This document shows positions 43,981-54,876 of a stretch of DNA of 64,000 bases, in pieces; position 1 is the stretch's first letter, and each line of letters opens with the position of its first letter. Where the stretch lies: assembly GCA_044350705.1 (NCBI GenBank), contig JBILHA010000002.1, positions 30,542-94,541 of the forward strand, in the 5' to 3' direction. The notes below the pieces were generated by a model. The model saw only the letters and a program-made list of their open reading frames with translations. It was not told the origin of the DNA and made no database searches. A program made the position numbers and the translations under genes. The DNA is from Candidatus Kapaibacterium sp. (GTDB lineage Bacteria; Patescibacteriota; Patescibacteriia; UBA9934).

Positions 43981-44101
43981 GAGAGAAGTATAGCAAGACG
44001 CAAAACGCGGCCCCAGGCACGCGCTTCTCACCTTCACCACCGAAGCGGAGAAAGGAGAAACGCGGCCCAGAGCCGCTGATCGAGCAGGGGCGGAATCCCT
44101 G

Positions 44102-45664
44102 CTAGTAGGCGTACGCCCAGACGTCATTGGCGTCTGCGCACGCGACGTATCCGGTGCAGGACGCGGGATTTTCCACGATCCGGCTTCCGGCAGCCACGCC
44201 GACGCCGTCGGTGAGGCTGCCACAGCCATACTGCACGGTCGCGAAAGATGAGGAACGATTCTCAACGGCGATATAGCCGCCGCCGCCCACCGAGATCGTT
44301 GATGTGCAGAGCGGGAGCTCGATCCAGGGATCCGGCGTACCGGTGTCGCCCGTGTCGCCCGCCTCGCAGTCCGCCTCGTCGGCGGTGCCGTCGCAGTCGT
44401 TGTCGACCGTATCGGCGCACACCTCGAGCTCGCCGGGGTTCACCGCCGCGACACCGTCATCGCAGTCGGTGTTGTCCTCGACGTAGCCCTCGATCCCGAT
44501 GCCTTCACACATGGGGGTACCGGGGTCCGACTCGTCGCCGTAGCCGTCGCCGTCGTTGTCCACGTAGACGTTCACGAAGTCGGCTGCGTCGGTGTCGGTG
44601 ACACCGTTGCAGTCGTTGTCGGTTCCGTCGCCGCAGACCTCGGTTGCGCCGGGGTTGACGAGCGCGTCGGTGTCGTTGCACTCCTCGCACGCGCCGTACC
44701 CGTCGCCGTCGTTGTCGTCGGCGCCGACCAACCCGTCGCAATTCATGTCGTCCGTGGCGCTGCAGTCCTCCATGGCGCCGGGGTTGACGAGCGCGTCGGT
44801 GTCGTCGCAGTCACCGTCGTGCGCGACGTAGCCGGTGGGCGTGCTGCAGGCCGAGACGGTCGTGGCGGGATCGCCGTAACCGTCGCCGTCGGTGTCGGCG
44901 TACCAGGTCTGCTTGTCGACGGCATCGCCGTCGGTGTCGCCGTTGCAGTCGTTGTCGATCCCGTCGCAGACCTCGGTGGCGTCGGGGTTGATGAGCATGT
45001 CGGAGTCGTTGCACTCCTCGCAGCCCGCAAAGCCGTCGCCGTCGCCGTCCTCGTTGCTCGTGAAGCCGTCGCAGTTCATGTCCTGCTCGTCTTCACAGGT
45101 TTCGGGGGCGCCGGGGTAGATGGTCGCGTCGGCATCGTTGCAGTCGGTGTAGTCGGGCACATAGCCGACCGGCTGTTCGCAGGCGGCGGTGGCCCAGGTG
45201 GGCTCCCCGTAGCCGTCGCCGTCGGTGTCGGCGTACCAGGTCTGCTTGTCGACGGCATCGCCGTCGGTGTCGCCGTTGCAGTCGTTGTCGATCCCGTCGC
45301 AGACCTCGGTGTTGCCGGGGTAGGCGCTCGAATCGGCATCATCGCAGTCCTCGCACTCGGCCACGCCGTCCTCGTCGTCGTCCACGCCGGTGATGAAACC
45401 GTCGCAGTCGATGTCGACGAGGTCGGTGCACTCCTCGATGGCATCCGGGTTGATCTCCGAGTTCCCGTCGTCGCAGTCGTCACAGGCCGAGAAGCCGTCA
45501 CCGTCGGCGTCGATCTCCTCGCACGGATTTCCGGTCTCGCCGGAGTCGTCCGTGACGATGCCGGTGTCATCCGGCATCGGCTCAAGCTCGCCCTTGATGT
45601 GCAGCGGGGGGAAACACGCCGCGAACAACACGAGGGCCATCAGGCCCATCTCGTTCGTCTTCAT
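44102..45664 (-). CDS. Secreted Cys-rich repeat protein with 'putative metal-binding motif' (MopE-like, Myxococcota-type) repeats
   Basis: Start ATG 45664 (MKTNEMGLMALVLFAACF, signal) preceded by GGAGG; ~9 repeats of C..C.DC(D/N)D.D..(I/V)NPGA.E.CDG.DNDC(N/D)G; strikingly GC-rich, GC3-dominated codons; contains ~120-bp near-identical internal direct repeats. Confidence 0.8.
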   Translation of the reverse strand: MKTNEMGLMALVLFAACFPPLHIKGELEPMPDDTGIVTDDSGETGNPCEEIDADGDGFSACDDCDDGNSEINPDAIEECTDLVDIDCDGFITGVDDDEDGVAECEDCDDADSSAYPGNTEVCDGIDNDCNGDTDGDAVDKQTWYADTDGDGYGEPTWATAACEQPVGYVPDYTDCNDADATIYPGAPETCEDEQDMNCDGFTSNEDGDGDGFAGCEECNDSDMLINPDATEVCDGIDNDCNGDTDGDAVDKQTWYADTDGDGYGDPATTVSACSTPTGYVAHDGDCDDTDALVNPGAMEDCSATDDMNCDGLVGADDNDGDGYGACEECNDTDALVNPGATEVCGDGTDNDCNGVTDTDAADFVNVYVDNDGDGYGDESDPGTPMCEGIGIEGYVEDNTDCDDGVAAVNPGELEVCADTVDNDCDGTADEADCEAGDTGDTGTPDPWIELPLCTSTISVGGGGYIAVENRSSSFATVQYGCGSLTDGVGVAAGSRIVENPASCTGYVACADANDVWAYAY

Positions 45665-45895
45665 TTCTTTTGCCTCCTGGGATTGAACCCGTAGCAAGGT
45701 TAGCAAAAAAATGCGAAAAAGTAAAGGAAAAAGGTGCCTGCAGAGCACTTCTTTTCCTCCAAAAAGTTTTTAAAACGAACAACCGCCCCTACAGTCCCGA
45801 AGGACCGCAGAGGCGGAAGATTCACCGGCGCGAGGCGCCGGCTACAGTAGACACGTGACCCCGTCTACTAGGGGGGGTGGCGCTGACGAGGCGCC

Positions 45896-47038
45896 CTACT
45901 CGACCTGGCAGACCGGCTCGTCGGCGGTGGAGCGCTTGTTGCACTCCCCCGCCGGTGGGGTGTCGTCCGTGGTGGAGTAGTTGAGGGTGGCCGTGTCCCC
46001 TCCGATGACGATCGAGCTGTAGTGCTCGGACCCGCCGGTGGCGATGTAGGAGCCATCGCTGCACTGCCCGAAGACCCACAGGAGGTCGCCGGACTGAGCG
46101 TTGATGCTCCCGGACAGGGTGTTGCTCCCGCCGGTGGCAATGTAGTCGGGGCTGGAGAGCCCCGGCCAGTTGCCGACCCAGTCGCTCTGGTTGAAGATCC
46201 AGAGCTCCCAGGTCTCGCCGGAGTCGGAGCACCACGAGCTGTCCTTCGTCACCTCGACGGTGAGGCTGCCCGAGCCGCTGTCGCTGCCCGAGTGCGTGCC
46301 GGTGTCCGTGTCGGAGGAGGTGTCCTCGTCCACGTCGGAGGTGCCGTCGTTGTCCGAGTCGGGGTTCTCGTCCGGGTCCAGGCCGAAGCCCTGGCAGCCG
46401 GGGGCGAAGACCCCCTCCTCATCCTTCATCAGGTAGAGGCCCAACCGGTTCCCGTCGAGGGGGTTGGGGCAGACCGCGGAGTCGTGGCCGCTCAGAGCGG
46501 TCAATTCCCCCCACTCGTCCAGCCCCCCGTCGGTGCTCAGATCGCACTCGCCGGGGGAGAAGGTCCGGGTGTTGCCGAAGAAGATGTCCACGGCGTCGGG
46601 GAAGAAGAACCGCACCTTCTCGGACCGGACGCCGGACGGCCAGTCGGACTGGTCGTCGTAGCGCTCGATCGGCAGGTTCTCGGAGCACCAGTCGTACTCA
46701 CCCTCGCTTCCCCCGAGGCCGTAGCCCACGAGGAAGGTGTTGGTGAGGCTGGCCACGAGCCCCTGGTCGAGGTAGACGAAGTCGCCGTAGGGCACCACCT
46801 TGTCGGCGGTGTCGATGATGCCGTCGTTGTCGAGGTCGGAGGTCGAGGAGCTGGGACCGGTGGTGCCCGAGTCGTCGCCGGAGTCGTCACCCCCGGCGCC
46901 GGTGTCGTCGCTGGGGTTGCTGGTGTCGTCGCCGTTGTTGTTGGCGTCGACGTTGCCATCGCTCTTCTTCTTGAACTCTCCGCCGCAAGCGACGAGGGAG
47001 GACAGGCCGAGGAGGGCGAGGAGGGAGAAGGCGTTCAT
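45896..47038 (-). CDS. Hypothetical secreted lipoprotein (lipobox LVAC), high-GC
   Basis: MNAFSLLALLGLSSLVACGG: signal peptidase II lipobox; D/S/G/T-rich acidic low-complexity N-terminal region then a Cys-containing domain; SD GGAG 8 nt upstream. Confidence 0.6.
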   Translation of the reverse strand: MNAFSLLALLGLSSLVACGGEFKKKSDGNVDANNNGDDTSNPSDDTGAGGDDSGDDSGTTGPSSSTSDLDNDGIIDTADKVVPYGDFVYLDQGLVASLTNTFLVGYGLGGSEGEYDWCSENLPIERYDDQSDWPSGVRSEKVRFFFPDAVDIFFGNTRTFSPGECDLSTDGGLDEWGELTALSGHDSAVCPNPLDGNRLGLYLMKDEEGVFAPGCQGFGLDPDENPDSDNDGTSDVDEDTSSDTDTGTHSGSDSGSGSLTVEVTKDSSWCSDSGETWELWIFNQSDWVGNWPGLSSPDYIATGGSNTLSGSINAQSGDLLWVFGQCSDGSYIATGGSEHYSSIVIGGDTATLNYSTTDDTPPAGECNKRSTADEPVCQVE

Positions 47039-47464
47039 GGCGTCTCCGGTACCTAGGGGAAACCCATTTGGGGTCCTAGGATTTTCTTTCTTTCGTTTCA
47101 GTTGTCAGAGGACTACCGGGACCATCCCGGCCGCTTGGGACCTGATTGATGTCTCAGGCCCCGAGGGCCCTGTTTGGGTCCGGCGGTGTTCGCGTCTCTT
47201 GTGGAGGAACAAGAGCCACGAACATCGCAGGAACAAATCTATTACTTGTTTTAAGATTCACTGTGATGCGTACGTAACCAGGAACCGGATTACTGATTTT
47301 CGTAACGGAGTATCGTACCATTTTTTTCCGTTTTTGTCAATGAAAGAAGGTGCGGATATCGAAGAATTTCACGGATGTTCGGATCTTCTTTTTCCCGGAT
47401 AAAGTGGGAGCAATCTTGCGATTCCTCACACTATGTTCTTGGAAACTTTTACAAACGTCTGGTA

Positions 47465-47501
47465 GGGAGAGTGGCGAAGCCCGAAGGCTTGCCACTCTCC
47501 C
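47465..47501 (-). terminator. Long GC-rich hairpin downstream of the beta-barrel-like gene
   Basis: gggagagtggcgaagcc cgaa ggcttgccactctccc: ~17-bp stem with one bulge; weak U-tract, so terminator function is tentative. Confidence 0.4.
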
Positions 47502-47547
47502 CCCACGATCGGAGAAACCCGAGAGTTCCTCCGATTTGTACCCGCTC

Positions 47548-48486
47548 CTAGAACGCGTAGATCGAGATCTCCGCGCCAGCCCGGAAGCCCAGCCCCGTCG
47601 TCACGTCGTTGCCGTTGGAGATGCGGTAAGGCATCGCCCCGGCCTCGAGGTTGACGGAAAGATGCTTCGCCGGCACGAGCCGCAGCTCAGCCCCCAGAGA
47701 CGCACCGTCCCCCTTGTAGGTGACGATGTAGTCGGGGAGGAGATCCACTTCCCAGTGGCTCAGCGTGACCGCCGGCCCCAGGTGCATGTTGTTCCCTATG
47801 CTGTAGATCGCCGAGAGGCCGATTTCGGCCACCCCGGTCCCCTTGCTTCCAGCGGCGATACCGCCGGAGCCGCTGTACCCCCACTTGCCTTTGGTCTCCA
47901 GGTCGGTGAGGCCGAGCTGGAGACCGAAGGTGGTGATGGCCGTGGGGCCGGCAGCTTCGGGGTTGGAGTAGGCCAACACCGTCATGGGCACCCCGAGGGT
48001 GAACTTCATGCCCGTGGCGGAATCGCGCTCCACCGACAGCTCGTCGCTGCTGGGCAGCTGCTGTGGTTCCGGCTTGGGGGCCGGGGCGGGCGGCGGGGGG
48101 GCGCCCCGCCGGCACTGGGCCGGGTCGCCCCGGAGGGCGGCCGCGATATCGATCTTCGGGGCGAACTCGCTGCAACCGTACTCGCCTTCGAGGTAGCGCG
48201 AGTAGGCCACGGTATCGGCCCCCCACTCGTCTCGACACACTTCGTCGCTCGCCTCCTGGCACACGAGCCAGCGGAACTGGCGCGAGTGCCGGCTCGGCGT
48301 CGACGAAGTGCGCTGCTGGCCGGCGGGGAGGTCGGCGACCTCCAGCTCCAGCTGAATGAGGCGCTCCTCGAGGCACTGCGCCCGCTGAGTGGAGTCGGTG
48401 AGACCGGTGCACGAGGCGGGGGGGTCCGCCGCGAGGGCGGCGGGGGTGAGACCGAGGACGGCGAAAAGGGTGAGGAACGACAGCAT
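47548..48486 (-). CDS. Hypothetical secreted protein, outer-membrane beta-barrel-like (C-terminal ...ISIYAF), high-GC
   Basis: Start ATG 48486 (MLSFLTLFAVLGLTPAALAA, signal peptide); Pro-rich linker; C-terminal ~170 aa of alternating hydrophobic residues ending in aromatic-x-Phe, as in OMP beta-barrels. Confidence 0.5.
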   Translation of the reverse strand: MLSFLTLFAVLGLTPAALAADPPASCTGLTDSTQRAQCLEERLIQLELEVADLPAGQQRTSSTPSRHSRQFRWLVCQEASDEVCRDEWGADTVAYSRYLEGEYGCSEFAPKIDIAAALRGDPAQCRRGAPPPPAPAPKPEPQQLPSSDELSVERDSATGMKFTLGVPMTVLAYSNPEAAGPTAITTFGLQLGLTDLETKGKWGYSGSGGIAAGSKGTGVAEIGLSAIYSIGNNMHLGPAVTLSHWEVDLLPDYIVTYKGDGASLGAELRLVPAKHLSVNLEAGAMPYRISNGNDVTTGLGFRAGAEISIYAF

Positions 48487-48720
48487 CAGAGCTTCCTTTC
48501 CCGGCCTACGCCGGGGAATGAGATTCACTTCTTGTTGGGTTTTTGAAGGATGCGGGCCGAGCCCGCATTGGGCTCGGAATCCCGCTTTTGAGGCGGTTTT
48601 CCTAGGGCGAGATATCAGCGCATGCAGTGGAGGAGAATGCACGTGCGACCTCCCGCCCTAGGAAAACCTCTCTCAGCGGGACAAACCATCGTACCAAAAA
48701 AATGCAAAAAAGTCAATGTT

Positions 48721-48797
48721 GGGAGCGTGGGAGTTGGGAAAGGGAGTATGCGTGGGAACTTGGGGAGTAAGGGGAGTATGGGGAGTGGGGGGAGTGA
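48721..48797 (+). repeat. G-rich degenerate tandem repeat tract (GGGAGT(A/G)NG units)
   Basis: gggagcgtgggagttgggaaagggagtatgcgtgggaacttggggagtaaggggagtatggggagtggggggagtg; lies upstream of the beta-barrel-like gene at the edge of the high-GC patch. Confidence 0.7.
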
Positions 48798-48954
48798 AAA
48801 AAACAAAAAACACCCCGTGACTTTTCTAGACAAGCGGGGTGATTTCTTTTATTCTTTGGCAAAACTCCTCTTTCTTGGCCAGGGCGAGCGGATGTGACGT
48901 CTCCTCCTCGTTGCATCTCGTAACGCTCTGGCTGCGAAAGAGGATTTTTTGTTT

Positions 48955-48990
48955 GGGGAGTGAGGGGAGTGAGGGGAGTGAGGGGAGTAG
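48955..48990 (+). repeat. Perfect tandem repeat (GGGGAGTGA)x3 plus GGGGAGTAG; left arm of inverted repeat around the four-helix-bundle gene
   Basis: ggggagtga ggggagtga ggggagtga ggggagtag read directly; an inverted, degenerate counterpart lies at 49449-49510. Confidence 0.85.
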
Positions 48991-49046
48991 AAATACATCA
49001 TGATAAGCTCAATGAGCAGACGTGCCCGGAAAACTCCTTGAGTTAT

Positions 49047-49457
49047 ATGAATTGCGCGCAATATGAAAAAACTATCAAAGATTTAGAGAGAGAAAATGAA
49101 AGGCCTTATGAAAAACTGAGAGTATGGAAAGAAGCTGATCTTTTTACAAAGGATGTGTTTTCTTTTTCTTCCAAGTGGCCAAAACAACATCTTTATACTT
49201 TAGGAACACAAATTCAACGATCAGCGCTTTCAGTGACATTAAATATCGTAGAAGGCAATGCAAGATTTTCCCGTAAGGATTATCGTCACTTTCTTATCCA
49301 GTCTCGAGGATCACTCGCTGAGACAGGCTATCTCGTGAAGCTTGCATATCATCTCCATCTTCTCCCACAAGATCACTACATCATTCTTCTTAAACGCTAT
49401 CGCTTCCTTTCTTATCTTCTTCAGCAGCTTATCAATAGCCTTATGACTACTCCCTAA
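49047..49457 (+). CDS. Four-helix-bundle protein (23S rRNA intervening-sequence protein family, TIGR02436-like)
   Basis: LRVWKEADLFTKDVFSFSSKWPKQHLYTLGTQIQRSALSVTLNIVEGNARFSRKDYRHFLIQSRGSLAETGYLVKLAYHLHLL matches the family consensus (..vwq.a..l.........p..e.y.l.sQl.RAa.SI..NIAEG.gr.s.kdf..fl.iA.GSl.E). ATG taken at 49047; the track ORF start at 48960 only translates the GGGGAGTGA repeat (RGVRGVRGV). Confidence 0.75.
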   Translation: MNCAQYEKTIKDLERENERPYEKLRVWKEADLFTKDVFSFSSKWPKQHLYTLGTQIQRSALSVTLNIVEGNARFSRKDYRHFLIQSRGSLAETGYLVKLAYHLHLLPQDHYIILLKRYRFLSYLLQQLINSLMTTP

Positions 49458-49510
49458 CTGCTCACTACTCCCTTTACTCCCCCAACTCCCCTCACTCCCC
49501 TTCCCTACTC
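49449..49510 (-). repeat. C-rich tract = inverted degenerate copies of the GGGGAGT(G/A)A repeat (right arm)
   Basis: Reverse complement reads ggagtagggaaggggagtgaggggagttgggggagtaaagggagtagtgagcag; overlaps the 3' ends of the four-helix-bundle gene and of the convergent Wzz-like gene. Confidence 0.7.
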
Positions 49511-50140
49511 CACGTGCACAATACGGTGTTGTCGGCGAACACGATCTGCTTGAATGAGCACGTACCCTGCCCCGCCAATAAGACCGAGGAAAATTCCTGA
49601 AAAGGCGTTTACTAAAATATTCGGGCGAACGGGATAGCGCGAATTTACCGGATCATCAATGACCTGCACCGAGATGTCTCCATTTGCATAGCGCCACCCG
49701 TCTGAAACATAGACATACGCTACTGCCGATGCGAGCGCTTCTGCCTGCTCTGGATCGGTGTGGTACGCATAAATTGTCATGATCCCGCTTCCTCGGGTCA
49801 CCGAAGCGGTCACGGTTTTCTTCCATTTCTTTTGGAACTTCAAGATGTCGTCAGGAAAATAACTTCGATCTACGTTATAGCCTCCATTAAACACTGCCGT
49901 ATATAAAGAAGAGGTGCTCAGCAAGCTTGCAAGCTGATCTGCCGCGGATTCGGCGCTTCTACTTGCGGTGTACGGATCTACTCCGTCTACTTTTGGGGTG
50001 ATGAGAATTTTTGTCGTTGAGCTGTATTCGAGTGGCTGCACCAATGAGATCACCACGGCAAGCGCAAGGCTGAGTGCTGAAAAAAGTAGCACTGTTGGCC
50101 ATGCGCGCAAGATGGTGGTGAGTTGTGGGGCAGATGCCAT
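49505..50140 (-). CDS. Putative polysaccharide chain-length determinant (Wzz-like, two TM flanking a periplasmic domain)
   Basis: 211 aa; N-terminal TM then LEYSSTTKILITP (Wzz N-terminal domain-like) and a C-terminal TM (NILVNAFSGIFLGLIGGAGYVLI); sits in the polysaccharide locus. Confidence 0.45.
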   Translation of the reverse strand: MASAPQLTTILRAWPTVLLFSALSLALAVVISLVQPLEYSSTTKILITPKVDGVDPYTASRSAESAADQLASLLSTSSLYTAVFNGGYNVDRSYFPDDILKFQKKWKKTVTASVTRGSGIMTIYAYHTDPEQAEALASAVAYVYVSDGWRYANGDISVQVIDDPVNSRYPVRPNILVNAFSGIFLGLIGGAGYVLIQADRVRRQHRIVHVE

Positions 50141-53936: not shown

Positions 53937-53964
53937 AACTTCCTACATCTGTAGGAAGTTTTTT
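53937..53964. terminator. Bidirectional hairpin terminator shared by smpB (+) and tmRNA (-)
   Basis: aaaaaacttcctaca tc tgtaggaagtttttt: 9-11-bp stem with A/T runs on both sides; abuts the tmRNA CCA end. Confidence 0.75.
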
Positions 53965-54378
53965 GGTGGACCTGACGGGAATTGAACCCGTATCCGAGGA
54001 ACGTTCGCCAAAACTCTTTCTTCCAAGCTCATTCGCGTTTAGAGGGTTTACGTCTTTTTCGGTCAAGAAACGCGACGAACAACGAAACCGACGATGACAC
54101 GGCAAGGGTCCCTTATGCAGTGCGTCATCCCTGCAAAGGCAAGCGAGAAGGGTTATGACATGACTACTTTACGCACTCGCAGCGTAAAGGTCATGGGTGG
54201 CGGCGTTATTACGCGGCGACCGGAACAAAGGAAGGCGTGCGGAGCGCAGAAGCGACGACAGCCTTCACTTTTGAAAATACGTTTGCATGTACTTTCTGAA
54301 GCGTGTGATAACGCGGGACGCTTCGCCCGCGGCTTGAGAGGGATTGGGAATGATCTTCGTCGAAAGCCTAACAGGCCC
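53964..54378 (-). ncRNA. ssrA: tmRNA (SsrA transfer-messenger RNA), ~415 nt
   Basis: 3' end on the minus strand reads GGGUUCAAUUCCCGUCAGGUCCACCA (T-arm, acceptor, CCA). The 5' end GGGCCUGUUAGGCUUUCGACGAAG pairs with it over 7 bp including a G3-U70 wobble. Conserved UUCGACG box. In-frame tag ORF from resume codon GCA: GCA AAC GUA ... GCC GCG UAA UAA gives ANVFSKVKAVVASALRTPSFVPVAA with a double stop. Convergent with smpB. Confidence 0.85.
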
Positions 54379-54473: not shown

Positions 54474-54606
54474 CACTCCTAGCCAGGAACAAACTTAGCA
54501 GCAAATCTGGTCTTGATTCTCTTCTCAATTCTTTTTCAATCTCACCGTACCGATGTGGTACGCCTCGGCCAAGCCTCGAAATCTCCTTGCAACTGAACGA
54601 ACTTAG
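54474..54606 (+). repeat. ~132-bp direct repeat, copy 1
   Basis: ctcctagccaggaacaaacttagcagcaaatctggtcttgattctcttctcaattctttttcaatctcaccgtaccgatgtggtacgcctcggccaagcctcgaaatctccttgcaactgaacgaact; near-identical to 54743-54876. Confidence 0.85.
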
Positions 54607-54742: not shown

Positions 54743-54876
54743 CACTCCTCGCCAGGAACAAACTTAGCAGCAAATCTGGTCTTGATTCTCTTCTCGATTC
54801 TTTTTTTTAATCTCACCGTATCGATGTGGTACACCTCGGCCAAGCCTCGAAATCTCCTTGCAACTGAACGAACTGA
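54743..54876 (+). repeat. ~132-bp direct repeat, copy 2
   Basis: ctcctcgccaggaacaaacttagcagcaaatctggtcttgattctcttctcgattcttttttttaatctcaccgtatcgatgtggtacacctcggccaagcctcgaaatctccttgcaactgaacgaact; differs from copy 1 at a handful of positions. Confidence 0.85.

What the first reader, a model, noticed from the sequence alone, without database searches (positions are those of the whole stretch)
48721..49510. Four-helix-bundle (23S rRNA intervening-sequence family) gene flanked by inverted (GGGGAGTGA)n repeats at the edge of the high-GC patch
The ORF 49047-49457 matches the four-helix-bundle proteins normally found inside intervening sequences (IVS) of 23S rRNA genes. Here it is not in an rRNA gene, but it is bracketed by a perfect (GGGGAGTGA)x4 tandem tract on the left (48955-48990) and a degenerate inverted copy of the same unit on the right (49449-49510).

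A transcript spanning both arms could fold into a long stem with the ORF in the loop. This is the same architecture as rRNA IVS elements excised by RNase III.

A third G-rich tract of the same unit lies 150 bp further left (48721-48797). The element also sits next to the right edge of the largest high-GC patch and overlaps the 3' end of the convergent Wzz-like gene.

This looks like an IVS-like cassette that has moved to a protein-coding locus, or a relic of one.
Basis: partly seen in the sequence, partly recalled or inferred. Interest (0 to 1): 0.7.

Follow-up and report, generated by a model that had tools for sequence, protein, structure and literature searches.

The report
Hairpin-armed four-helix-bundle gene cassette
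A small gene of the type first found inside ribosomal-RNA "intervening sequences" sits here between two inverted blocks of a 9-base repeat, and about 60 relatives show that this repeat-armed, apparently mobile package is the family's usual format, not a one-off.

Summary
ORF 49047-49457 is a clear PF05635/TIGR02436 four-helix-bundle (FHB) protein. It lies between a G-rich nonamer arm (48955-48990) and its C-rich inverse (49465-49500). The arms are 89% complementary and fold into a 34-bp closing stem.

Orthologous loci keep the ORF under purifying selection (dN/dS about 0.12). They keep complementary arms although synonymous sites are saturated. Unit number varies (3, 4 or 6) and the unit co-changes on both arms (GGGGAGT versus GGGGATT).

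The architecture is general. 38 of 58 distinct family genes have inverted tandem-repeat arms, against 19 of 423 control ORFs. The arms are mostly heptamers, with a different unit in each lineage.

In two Nostoc plasmids the cassette occupies different 3-nt spacers of the same operon. That marks it as a discrete insert running from arm to arm. Other copies sit between cas genes, or nested in PglX and DnaE genes.

So this is an IVS-type cassette, probably processed through its RNA stem. It is an old resident of this intergenic site, not a recent escapee from rRNA and not a relic. GGGGAGT arrays as such are common elsewhere and not specific to this gene. RNase III processing and the protein's role remain inferred.

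The parts
48955..49500 (+). The whole cassette: 5' arm, four-helix-bundle ORF, 3' arm (546 nt).
   Evidence: Arms delimit it. Folding closes it with a 34-bp stem. The same arm-to-arm unit is seen as a discrete insert in the Nostoc plasmid comparison.
48955..48990 (+). 5' arm: GGGGAGTGA x3 plus GGGGAGTAG.
   Evidence: TRF and inverted repeat I1. Unit number varies between strains: 4 here, 6 in L004, 3 in L005. L003 diverges from the window exactly at its outer edge.
49047..49457 (+). Four-helix-bundle protein gene, 136 aa (PF05635 / TIGR02436). No obvious Shine-Dalgarno sequence upstream.
   Evidence: Family matches. Closest solved structure is 2GSC, E 1e-13. dN/dS is 0.12 against L006 and 0.35 against L004. 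It keeps the family-invariant residues Q55, G70, S89 and E92.
49465..49500 (+). 3' arm: C-rich inverse of the 5' arm (CTACTCCCTTTACTCCCCCAACTCCCCTCACTCCCC). A further degenerate unit, ACTACTCCC (49446-49454), lies in the last codons of the ORF.
   Evidence: Identical in L004 and L005. In L006 it is replaced by an AATCCCC-type arm that matches the left-arm unit GGGGATT.
48721..48797 (+). Third, degenerate G-rich nonamer tract. It is a direct copy of the 5' arm unit and 82-87% complementary to the 3' arm. It is lineage-specific and lies between two divergent promoter-like sites.
   Evidence: (I2, I3). Absent from L006.
48827..48955 (+). Neighbouring element, not shown to be part of the cassette: promoter-like site TAGACA-17-TATTCT (48827-48855), then a conserved hairpin of about 95 nt (48858-48955) with apical loop UCUCCUCCU and a U-run that abuts the 5' arm.
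   Evidence: Promoter scan. Fold dG -52.5, z -6.7, and z -12 in L006. Compensatory changes against L006. No Rfam family.
49505..50140 (-). Convergent neighbour: a 211-aa gene resembling polysaccharide chain-length determinants. Its stop codon lies 4 nt from the 3' arm.

Best explanation
This is one copy of a widespread class of discrete gene cassettes. Each has a four-helix-bundle (FHB, PF05635) ORF bracketed by a G-rich tandem-repeat arm upstream and its reverse complement just after the stop codon. ORF-bearing 23S rRNA intervening sequences are the same kind of element sitting in one particular host site.

What is shown:
- The cassette enters DNA as a unit running from arm to arm. The Nostoc empty-site comparison shows this for relatives.
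- This copy is long fixed in an intergenic spacer.
- Its protein is kept by purifying selection.
- Its arms are kept complementary while their sequence and unit number drift.

What is inferred:
- In any transcript that crosses the cassette, the arms pair into a stem of about 34 bp with the ORF in the loop.
- That stem is a substrate for RNase III, as was shown experimentally for the rRNA-borne members.
- The stem therefore separates or insulates the cassette RNA from host RNA. This would explain why the element is tolerated in rRNA, in tight operons and between convergent genes.
- The protein is related to the nucleic-acid-binding DGR (diversity-generating retroelement) accessory protein Avd. 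I infer that it acts on the cassette's own nucleic acid, in maintenance or spread. This is the weakest step.
For: Identity and anatomy.

Conservation in orthologous loci:
- L004 (97% aa), L005 and L006 (62% aa) keep the cassette at the same site next to the same neighbours.
- dS against L006 is saturated (pS 0.72) while dN/dS is 0.12.
- In every ortholog the MFE and centroid folds close the cassette with the arms.
- The unit differs by one base on both arms together: GGGGAGT/ACTCCCC against GGGGATT/AATCCCC.

Generality:
- 38 of 58 distinct family genes have flanking inverted arms at z >= 5, against 19 of 423 non-family ORFs (Fisher p 1.4e-27).
- The period is 7 nt in 32 of 38. There are many different unit sequences.
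- The median arm is 30 nt. The 3' arm starts a median of 3 nt after the stop codon.
- The G-rich arm is the upstream one in 35 of 38.

Discrete insert:
- Nostoc punctiforme pNPUN02 and Nostoc ATCC 53789 pNsp_c carry different cassettes in adjacent spacers of the same operon.
- Each plasmid provides the other's empty site (TAG-GTT-ATG and TAA-TTT-ATG). The inserted DNA begins and ends with the arms.
- The N. punctiforme cassette also folds arm to arm, z -4.05.

Precedent for processing: the Coxiella IVS has a 28-bp terminal stem, the S23p ORF in the loop, and RNase III cuts mid-stem (PMC4990558). Family ORFs also occur in CPR (Candidate Phyla Radiation bacteria) 16S and 23S insertions (PMC11270868).
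Against: - No transcript data exist for this organism.
- The only promoter-like site upstream (48827-48855) is followed by a long hairpin plus U-run that could terminate before the 5' arm. It is therefore not shown that one RNA carries both arms.
- The ORF has no clear ribosome-binding site.
- I did not check for an RNase III gene in this genome.
- One third of family genes lack detectable arms.
- In L173 three units of one arm changed without compensation. This fits array slippage rather than strict selection on pairing.
- Four cassettes lie inside PglX or DnaE genes with the host reading frame kept open. Cleavage there would destroy the host mRNA, so processing cannot be the universal outcome.
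- Arms could be kept alike by DNA-level template switching between inverted repeats, without any RNA function.
- The sample is biased towards viral contigs and cyanobacterial plasmids.
Confidence: 0.6

Rival explanations
1. The arms work mainly at the DNA level. They would be terminal inverted repeats or iterated protein-binding sites of a mobile element. The FHB protein would bind the heptamer or nonamer repeats and recruit host recombination or replication functions. The RNA stem would be a by-product. This overlaps with the best explanation rather than excluding it.
For: - The insert is discrete and runs arm to arm in the Nostoc operons.
- Cassettes occur in many unrelated contexts.
- In two independent cases, alternative genomic contexts diverge exactly at the outer edge of the 5' arm: L003 against the window and L138 against L135.
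- Arms are iterated short units like iterons, and the solved relative is reported as a homopentamer (cited in PMC4990558).
- The protein is related to Avd.
Against: - The protein has no nuclease, recombinase or transposase domain.
- No target-site duplication is visible at the window junctions or at the Nostoc junctions.
- The cassette has been stable at this site through deep divergence.
- In L003 and L138 only one flank differs. That looks like rearrangement at a repeat, not transposition.
Confidence: 0.3
2. The tracts are G-quadruplex-forming or slippage-prone simple repeats that act as a phase-variable switch. Changes in unit number would tune expression of the FHB gene or of the convergent polysaccharide gene.
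For: - (GGGGAGTGA)4 fits the G4N5 quadruplex pattern on the + strand, and its inverse fits on the - strand.
- Unit number is polymorphic between close strains: 3, 4 or 6.
- The locus lies in a surface-polysaccharide gene neighbourhood.
Against: - Most family arms cannot form quadruplexes, for example CGTTACA, ACGTTCA, TCGGCNT and AAAGCTA.
- The shared feature across the family is inverted complementarity, not G-runs.
- The arms are outside the coding frames, apart from the last codons of the ORF.
Confidence: 0.06
3. The tracts are ordinary intergenic simple-sequence repeats made by slippage, and their inverted arrangement around the ORF is coincidence.
For: GGGGAGT nonamer arrays are frequent in metagenomes and unrelated to FHB genes. 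In repeat-rich cyanobacterial contigs, unrelated genes can also end up between inverted arrays.
Against: - All 7 GGGGAGTRA matches in the 64 kb window are at this locus, against 0.7 expected.
- The arms score z = 15.6.
- Complementarity is retained in orthologs past synonymous saturation.
- The enrichment is about 40-fold across the family.
Confidence: 0.03
4. The gene is the Avd accessory protein of a diversity-generating retroelement, and the repeats are parts of that system.
For: Weak matches to Avd models: NF033474 with E 6e-4 and PHROG 3206 'Avd protein of DGR' with E 2e-7. PF05635 is common in DGR neighbourhoods (PMC10053308).
Against: - The NF033474 score is 20 bits against a cutoff of 80.
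- No reverse transcriptase family appears among the called genes within 10 kb on either side.
- The repeats are short tandem units in inverted orientation, not a template/variable repeat pair.
Confidence: 0.01

Closest known systems
ORF-bearing intervening sequences of 23S rRNA (Coxiella burnetii IVS with S23p; Leptospira IVS; PF05635-encoding insertions in CPR rRNA genes)
   Same: - Same protein family in the loop.
- Same size class: 546 nt here against 428-444 nt in Coxiella.
- Same terminal inverted repeats forming a long stem: 34 bp here against 28 bp (PMC4990558).
   Different: - Not in an rRNA gene. No rRNA is found anywhere in the window.
- The arms are tandem nonamer arrays.
- The ORF is under purifying selection here, whereas the Coxiella ORF is reported as decaying and untranslated.
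- RNase III excision is untested here.
Short tandemly repeated repetitive (STRR) heptamers of heterocystous cyanobacteria
   Same: Both are intergenic arrays of 7-9-nt units. In Nostoc, Anabaena and Calothrix plasmids, heptamer arrays of this type form the arms of FHB cassettes.
   Different: STRRs are described as repeats of unknown function, and I found no stated link to FHB genes. Here the unit is 9 nt and the organism is an uncultivated, probably CPR-like bacterium. I did not test whether the classic STRR1-3 units themselves flank FHB genes.
Avd, the accessory variability determinant of diversity-generating retroelements
   Same: Homologous four-helix-bundle fold family (PMC10053308).
   Different: No reverse transcriptase or template/variable repeats nearby. 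The score is far below the Avd model cutoff.
XCC0516 of Xanthomonas campestris (PDB 2GSC)
   Same: Closest solved structure by sequence, E 1e-13. It is described as a homopentamer of four-helix bundles (cited in PMC4990558).
   Different: Its function is unknown too. I did not examine its genomic flanks.
PF05635 genes reported inside CRISPR-cas loci (Zhang and Ye 2014, PMC3936711)
   Same: Same family, lodged in tiny spacers between cas genes. I saw the same arrangement between cas6 and cas4 in Anabaena sp. 90 and Pseudanabaena, with heptamer arms.
   Different: That paper reads the co-occurrence as a possible functional link to Cas nucleases. The arms and the Nostoc empty sites suggest opportunistic insertion instead. 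The window has no cas genes.

Membership tests
PF05635 / TIGR02436 four-helix-bundle protein family | Profile score above the curated cutoffs. | tested here: met
   PF05635 scores 95.3 bits against 33.8. TIGR02436 scores 87.5 bits against 24.
PF05635 / TIGR02436 four-helix-bundle protein family | Conserved core residues: the Q..R...S...NI.EG motif and the S..E motif. | tested here: met
   Q55, G70, S89 and E92 are invariant, and R58, S62, N66, I67 and E69 nearly invariant, in a 60-sequence alignment that includes the window protein.
PF05635 / TIGR02436 four-helix-bundle protein family | Four-helix-bundle fold and pentameric assembly. | not tested
   Only sequence similarity to 2GSC, E 1e-13. 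I ran no structure prediction.
23S rRNA intervening sequence (IVS) | Inserted within a 23S (or 16S) rRNA gene helix. | tested here: not met
   Rfam finds only a tmRNA and one tRNA in the 64 kb window. The cassette lies between a hairpin element and a convergent protein gene.
23S rRNA intervening sequence (IVS) | Terminal inverted repeats forming a long stem that encloses the ORF. | tested here: met
   36-nt arms, 89% complementary. The 34-bp closing stem appears in both MFE and centroid folds and in the orthologs.
23S rRNA intervening sequence (IVS) | Excision from the precursor by RNase III without re-ligation. | not testable with these tools
   This needs RNA end mapping or an in vitro cleavage assay.
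Diversity-generating retroelement (Avd component) | Adjacent reverse transcriptase and a template/variable repeat pair. | tested here: not met
   No RT family among the called genes within +/-10 kb. The only repeats are short inverted tandem arrays.
Diversity-generating retroelement (Avd component) | Score above the Avd equivalog cutoff (NF033474). | tested here: not met
   20 bits against a cutoff of 80.
Transposon or MITE-like mobile element | Terminal inverted repeats bounding a discrete insert. | tested here: met
   Arms bound the unit here. In the Nostoc plasmids the inserted DNA runs arm to arm relative to the empty sites.
Transposon or MITE-like mobile element | Target-site duplication and a transposase, own or in trans. 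| tested here: not met
   No direct repeat at the outer junctions here or in Nostoc. The protein has no transposase domain. A trans-acting enzyme cannot be excluded.
Armed FHB cassette (the class proposed in this report) | G-rich tandem-repeat arm within about 100 nt upstream and its complement starting within about 40 nt of the stop codon. | tested here: met
   The 5' arm ends 56 nt before the ATG and the 3' arm starts 8 nt after the stop codon. The same geometry holds in 35 of 38 armed relatives.

The most novel reading that the evidence does not exclude
Four-helix-bundle cassettes are a large, unrecognised class of mobile 'intervening' elements.
- Their ends are lineage-specific inverted arrays of 7-9-nt repeats.
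- The FHB protein is an Avd-like nucleic-acid binder. It would recognise its own repeat arms and promote spread or maintenance.
- The RNA stem, together with an alternative reading frame kept open, would let the element live harmlessly in rRNA, in 3-nt operon spacers, between cas genes, and in frame inside genes such as PglX and DnaE.
- The classic cyanobacterial STRR repeats and ORF-less rRNA IVS hairpins would then be arms or footprints of such elements.
Probability: 0.3. Interest if true: 0.85.

Novelty: new variant of a known kind. Interest (0 to 1): 0.62.

Why it matters
The origin of rRNA intervening sequences has been open since the early 1990s. So has the role of their conserved ORF, a family with more than 8,000 clusters at 50% identity.

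These results recast the rRNA IVS as one landing site of a general cassette with a recognisable signature: inverted tandem-repeat arms. They also supply tractable test cases in cultured cyanobacteria (Nostoc punctiforme, Anabaena sp. 90).

Practical consequences follow:
- PF05635 genes found inside CRISPR-cas, BREX/PglX or polysaccharide loci should not be read as functional partners without first checking for arms.
- The arms break assemblies and coincide with the points where alternative assembled contexts diverge.
- Cassettes nested in ORFs can mislead gene calling.

If the protein binds its arms, this would be a new and very compact type of selfish element.

Tried and rejected
- Metagenome scan for GGGGAGTNN x3. 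It shows the unit is not specific. It says nothing about the rest of this genome.
The accepted narrow alignment returned only 3 genome loci. I therefore sampled the family from viral contigs and plasmids.
- Search for the native context of the TatD-like gene fused to the arm in L003. The best database relative is only 46% identical. I could not decide between a real rearrangement and a chimeric contig.
- Rfam at gathering and at permissive thresholds gave nothing meaningful for the arms or for the two neighbouring hairpins.
- tblastn against cultured-phage genomes gave no match.
- Literature searches for a description of repeat arms around non-rRNA FHB genes, or for an STRR-FHB link, found none. 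Absence from this library does not prove novelty.
- The 91-aa ORF 48622-48897 called in the source metagenome is rejected as a gene. Its conservation pattern is compensatory hairpin pairing, not coding.
- The DGR/Avd reading and the chance-repeat reading are rejected for the reasons given under rival explanations.
Full report
1. WHAT IS THERE

The region reads as the first-stage reader described it.

ORF 49047-49457 (+) encodes 136 aa. It matches PF05635 (23S_rRNA_IVP) with E 3e-27 and 95 bits against a cutoff of 33.8. It matches TIGR02436 'four helix bundle protein' with E 6e-25. Its closest solved relative is Xanthomonas XCC0516, PDB 2GSC, E 1e-13.

Tandem Repeats Finder reports three arrays:
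- 48955-48988: GGGGAGTGA x3.8, perfect.
- 49466-49502: the inverse unit x4.1.
- 48762-48795: GGGGAGTAA x3.8.

The best inverted pair is 48955-48990 with 49465-49500. It is 36 nt long, 89% complementary, with 474 nt between the arms. It scores z = 15.6 against shuffled flanks.

Folding 48940-49520 as RNA gives a 16 + 18 bp closing stem with the ORF in the loop, in both the MFE and the centroid structure, z = -4.1.

All seven GGGGAGTRA matches in the 64 kb window fall at this locus, against 0.7 expected.

Three small corrections:
- The fourth left unit is GGGGAGTAG, not GGGGAGTGA.
- The right arm stops 4 nt short of the convergent gene's stop codon (49505-49507).
- That gene's Wzz and GNVR matches are below Pfam's cutoffs.

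No rRNA gene is present in the window. Rfam finds only a tmRNA and tRNA-Asp.

2. THE SAME LOCUS IN RELATIVES

The exact protein occurs on several metagenome contigs, the longest 532 kb, all labelled only 'bacterium'. Named neighbours of related proteins are Patescibacteria/Peribacteraceae.

Three orthologous loci were retrieved:

| Locus | aa identity | 5' arm | Note |
|---|---|---|---|
| L004 | 97% | 6 units | |
| L005 | 84% as listed | 3 units | in-frame 19-codon deletion that removes helix 1 |
| L006 | 62% | GGGGATT-type units | |

All three keep the cassette beside the same convergent gene. L004 and L006 also keep the same upstream elements; the L005 contig starts too close to the gene to show them. 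The window has 4 units in its 5' arm.

Against L006, synonymous sites are saturated (pS 0.72) and dN/dS is 0.12. Against L004, dN/dS is 0.35. The protein is therefore maintained by selection.

L006 still has complementary arms despite that divergence. Their unit differs by one base on both sides together: GGGGATT on the left and AATCCCC on the right. The L006 arms form a 33-nt inverted repeat that reaches into the last codons of the ORF. L004 also folds arm to arm.

The third tract (48721-48797) is absent from L006. It is a lineage-specific expansion, not a conserved part of the cassette.

3. IS THE REPEAT UNIT SPECIAL?

It is not. I built an HMM from 158 family proteins, and it recovers every known copy as a positive control. 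It finds no family gene on any of those 120 contigs.

Most of the tracts are (GGGGAGTGT)n-type arrays on low-GC contigs rich in other G-rich arrays. A few occur as inverted pairs about 100 nt apart with no ORF between them (L012, L016, L045, L120).

4. IS THE ARCHITECTURE SPECIAL?

It is. This is the main result.

The family is very large: 8,258 clusters at 50% identity with E <= 1e-3. I sampled it from genome contigs, from contigs encoding distant homologues, and from two pattern-based scans of viral contigs.

For each gene I aligned the 250 nt upstream against the reverse complement of the 250 nt downstream, and compared the score with shuffled flanks.

| Set | With inverted arms (z >= 5) | Total |
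|---|---|---|
| Distinct family genes | 38 | 58 |
| Non-family ORFs | 19 | 423 |

The control ORFs come from the same contigs, the window and the repeat-rich contigs. The odds ratio is 40 and Fisher p is 1.4e-27.

Properties of the arms:
- They are tandem repeats. The period is 7 nt in 32 of 38, 8 nt in 3, and 9 nt only in the window's own lineage.
- The unit is different in nearly every lineage. Examples are CGTTACA, AGTGGAG, GGCTGTT, CCAGTTG, GGCAGAA, TCGGCNT, ACGTTCA, GGGAGCA and TTCCAGT.
- The median arm is 30 nt.
- The 3' arm begins a median of 3 nt after the stop codon.
- The G-rich arm is the upstream one in 35 of 38.

An inverted repeat reads the same way on both strands. This last bias therefore means that a transcript from either direction meets the G-rich arm first.

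One possible reason is my inference only. A C-rich arm that emerges last is paired at once, and so is not exposed as a Rho loading site.

5. THE CASSETTE IS A DISCRETE INSERT

tblastn against plasmids found family genes almost only in cyanobacteria.

Nostoc punctiforme pNPUN02 and Nostoc sp. ATCC 53789 pNsp_c share an operon of genes 321, 441, 288 and 1542 nt long.
- In the first plasmid an FHB cassette lies between the 441-nt and 288-nt genes.
- In the second, a different FHB cassette lies between the 288-nt and 1542-nt genes.
- Each plasmid shows the other's empty site: TAG-GTT-ATG and TAA-TTT-ATG.
- The extra DNA runs from arm to arm: (CAGGAGT)n...(ACTCCTG)n in one and (GGGAAAA)n...(CCCTTTT)n in the other.
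- No target-site duplication is evident.
- The N. punctiforme cassette also folds arm to arm, z -4.05.

Other cultured examples:
- In Anabaena sp. 90 the cassette sits between cas6 and cas4 of a type I-D operon, with arms (GGTGACA)n/(TGTCACC)n.
- In Pseudanabaena galeata the cassette also sits between cas6 and cas4, with long heptamer arrays on both sides.
- Calothrix has (GGGTGTA)n/(TACACCC)n.
- Geminocystis has (GGGAAAA/G)n.

Zhang and Ye (PMC3936711) had noted 18 PF05635 genes inside cas loci and suggested a link to Cas nucleases. The arms and the empty sites point instead to opportunistic insertion.

6. CASSETTES INSIDE GENES

Four distinct cassettes lie inside long ORFs on the same strand.

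In L166 the host is DnaE, with the DNA_pol3_alpha domain before the insert and the finger domain after it. The insert is bounded by GTGAACGAAGAGGAAC.../...GTTCCTTTTCTTCAC.

In L145, L146 and L159 the host is a PglX/type IIG methyltransferase. The PADLOC profile PDLC02521 matches through position 971 before the insert in L146 and from position 972 after it in L145. The hosts are only 33% identical yet carry the insert at the same site.

In all four, the FHB gene is in the +1 frame relative to the host. The host frame stays free of stop codons through the whole insert, about 125-210 codons.

The scan detects nested cassettes by looking for a long open frame. That all four detected cases have an open host frame is therefore partly circular. 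I did not search for host genes split by a cassette.

Taken at face value, it suggests the host protein is translated through the insert. If so, stem cleavage cannot be the universal fate of these elements.

7. HOW IT MOST LIKELY WORKS HERE

Shown:
- Family membership.
- Complementary arms, conserved and co-varying.
- Purifying selection on the protein.
- An architecture shared across the family.
- Arm-to-arm inserts in relatives.

Established for rRNA-borne members: the terminal stem is cut mid-stem by RNase III and the ORF lies in the loop (PMC4990558). Family ORFs also occur in CPR rRNA insertions (PMC11270868).

Inferred for this locus:
- Transcripts crossing 48955-49500 from either side fold the 34-bp stem.
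- RNase III processes it.
- This uncouples the cassette RNA from the convergent polysaccharide gene and from the upstream elements.

Weak points:
- No expression data.
- No clear ribosome-binding site.
- The only upstream promoter-like site (48827-48855) is followed by a long hairpin and U-run, which may stop transcription just before the 5' arm.

I put 0.6 on the overall account. Within it, I put about 0.85 on the classification and about 0.45 on RNase III processing at this locus.

The main rival is a DNA-level role of the arms in mobility, with the protein binding them. It is compatible with the best explanation. Two cases support it, in which alternative contexts diverge exactly at the outer edge of the 5' arm: L003 against the window and L138 against L135.

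The quadruplex/phase-variation, chance-repeat and DGR-Avd readings are disfavoured.

8. COMPARISON WITH WHAT IS KNOWN, AND NOVELTY

The element works like an ORF-bearing rRNA IVS. It fails that class's defining feature, location in an rRNA gene. It is not a DGR: there is no reverse transcriptase, and the Avd model scores 20 bits against a cutoff of 80.

Its arms resemble the STRR heptamers long known in heterocystous cyanobacteria.

I found no paper describing repeat arms as a general property of FHB genes, or linking STRRs to them. The library is incomplete, so the claim of novelty is provisional.

I rate the finding a new variant of a known kind, with interest 0.62. The window copy is an ordinary member of its class. 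The class itself appears under-described, and it makes the old questions about IVS elements and their ORF directly testable.

Noticed in passing
window 48583-48687 (-) and 48858-48955 (+); promoter-like sites 48716-48688 (-) and 48827-48855 (+): Two divergently oriented, conserved hairpins of about 100 nt, each downstream of a sigma-70-like promoter and each with a CUCCUCC apical loop. They fold at dG -70 and -52 (z -7.3 and -6.7).

Both are conserved with compensatory changes in L006, where synonymous sites of the neighbouring ORF are saturated. One is the 5' leader of the secreted-protein gene 47548-48490 (-). The other ends in a U-run that abuts the cassette's 5' arm.

Neither has an Rfam match, and they are the only such hairpins in the window. 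They could be anti-Shine-Dalgarno-like regulatory RNAs. The 91-aa ORF 48622-48897 called over them is probably spurious.
   Followed up: partly
L003:1-490 against window 48954; L138:1-768 against L135:307: In two independent cassettes, short contigs from other samples are 100% identical to the reference from the first unit of the 5' arm rightwards and unrelated to its left. In L003 the left side is a TatD-like gene. In L138 it is a different upstream gene.

This is either real rearrangement at the arm or chimeric assembly. The TatD gene has no relative closer than 46% in the database.
   Followed up: partly
L166:~1347-1980; L145:~560-1060; L146 and L159:~1400-1900: FHB cassettes nested inside a DnaE gene and inside three PglX/type IIG methyltransferase genes. 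The three PglX hosts are only 33% identical yet carry the insert at the same site.

The FHB gene is always in the +1 frame relative to the host. The host frame stays open through the whole insert.
   Followed up: partly
L210 (Nostoc punctiforme pNPUN02) against L215 (Nostoc sp. ATCC 53789 pNsp_c): Two different FHB cassettes occupy adjacent 3-nt intergenic spacers of the same conserved operon. Each plasmid therefore shows the other's empty site, and the cassette ends are defined at the arms.
   Followed up: yes
L211 (Anabaena sp. 90 pANA02) and L214 (Pseudanabaena galeata pPg_01): An FHB gene lies between cas6 and cas4 of type I-D CRISPR-cas operons, flanked by long heptamer arrays of up to about 20 units.

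In Pseudanabaena the downstream array is a direct copy, not an inverted one. An inverted copy lies further upstream.
   Followed up: partly
L012:925-1068, L016:729-839, L045:2297-2449, L120:1623-1752: Inverted pairs of GGGGAGT-type nonamer arrays about 60-100 nt apart with no ORF between them. In L012 the inverted repeat extends to 47 nt.

They have no Rfam match. They might be ORF-less relatives or remnants of armed cassettes.
   Followed up: no
L005:95-502 (GCA_009921885.1, NBS70161.1): The ortholog annotated as 'four helix bundle protein' has an in-frame 19-codon deletion that removes helix 1 (NERPYEKLRVWKEADLFTK). It is called from an upstream ATG. It is probably a decaying copy.
   Followed up: partly
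window 44000-48500: A high-GC patch (0.58-0.67 against about 0.50) encodes minus-strand secreted, Asp/Gly-rich repeat proteins. One has a Cu-binding MopE match and a 333-nt tandem repeat at 44594-45321.

The rightmost gene of the patch is conserved next to the cassette in L006, so the patch is not a recent insertion at this edge.
   Followed up: partly
window 54474-54603 and 54743-54874: A direct repeat of about 132 nt (94.7% identical) lies close to the tmRNA gene at 53964-54378 (-).
   Followed up: no
L130:3001-3360: A 42%-identical FHB gene (P0007) without detectable arms lies inside another polysaccharide cluster, next to Wzy_C and flippase genes. The window's neighbourhood is similar (Wzy_C, GT4 glycosyltransferases and a chain-length-determinant-like gene).
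   Followed up: no
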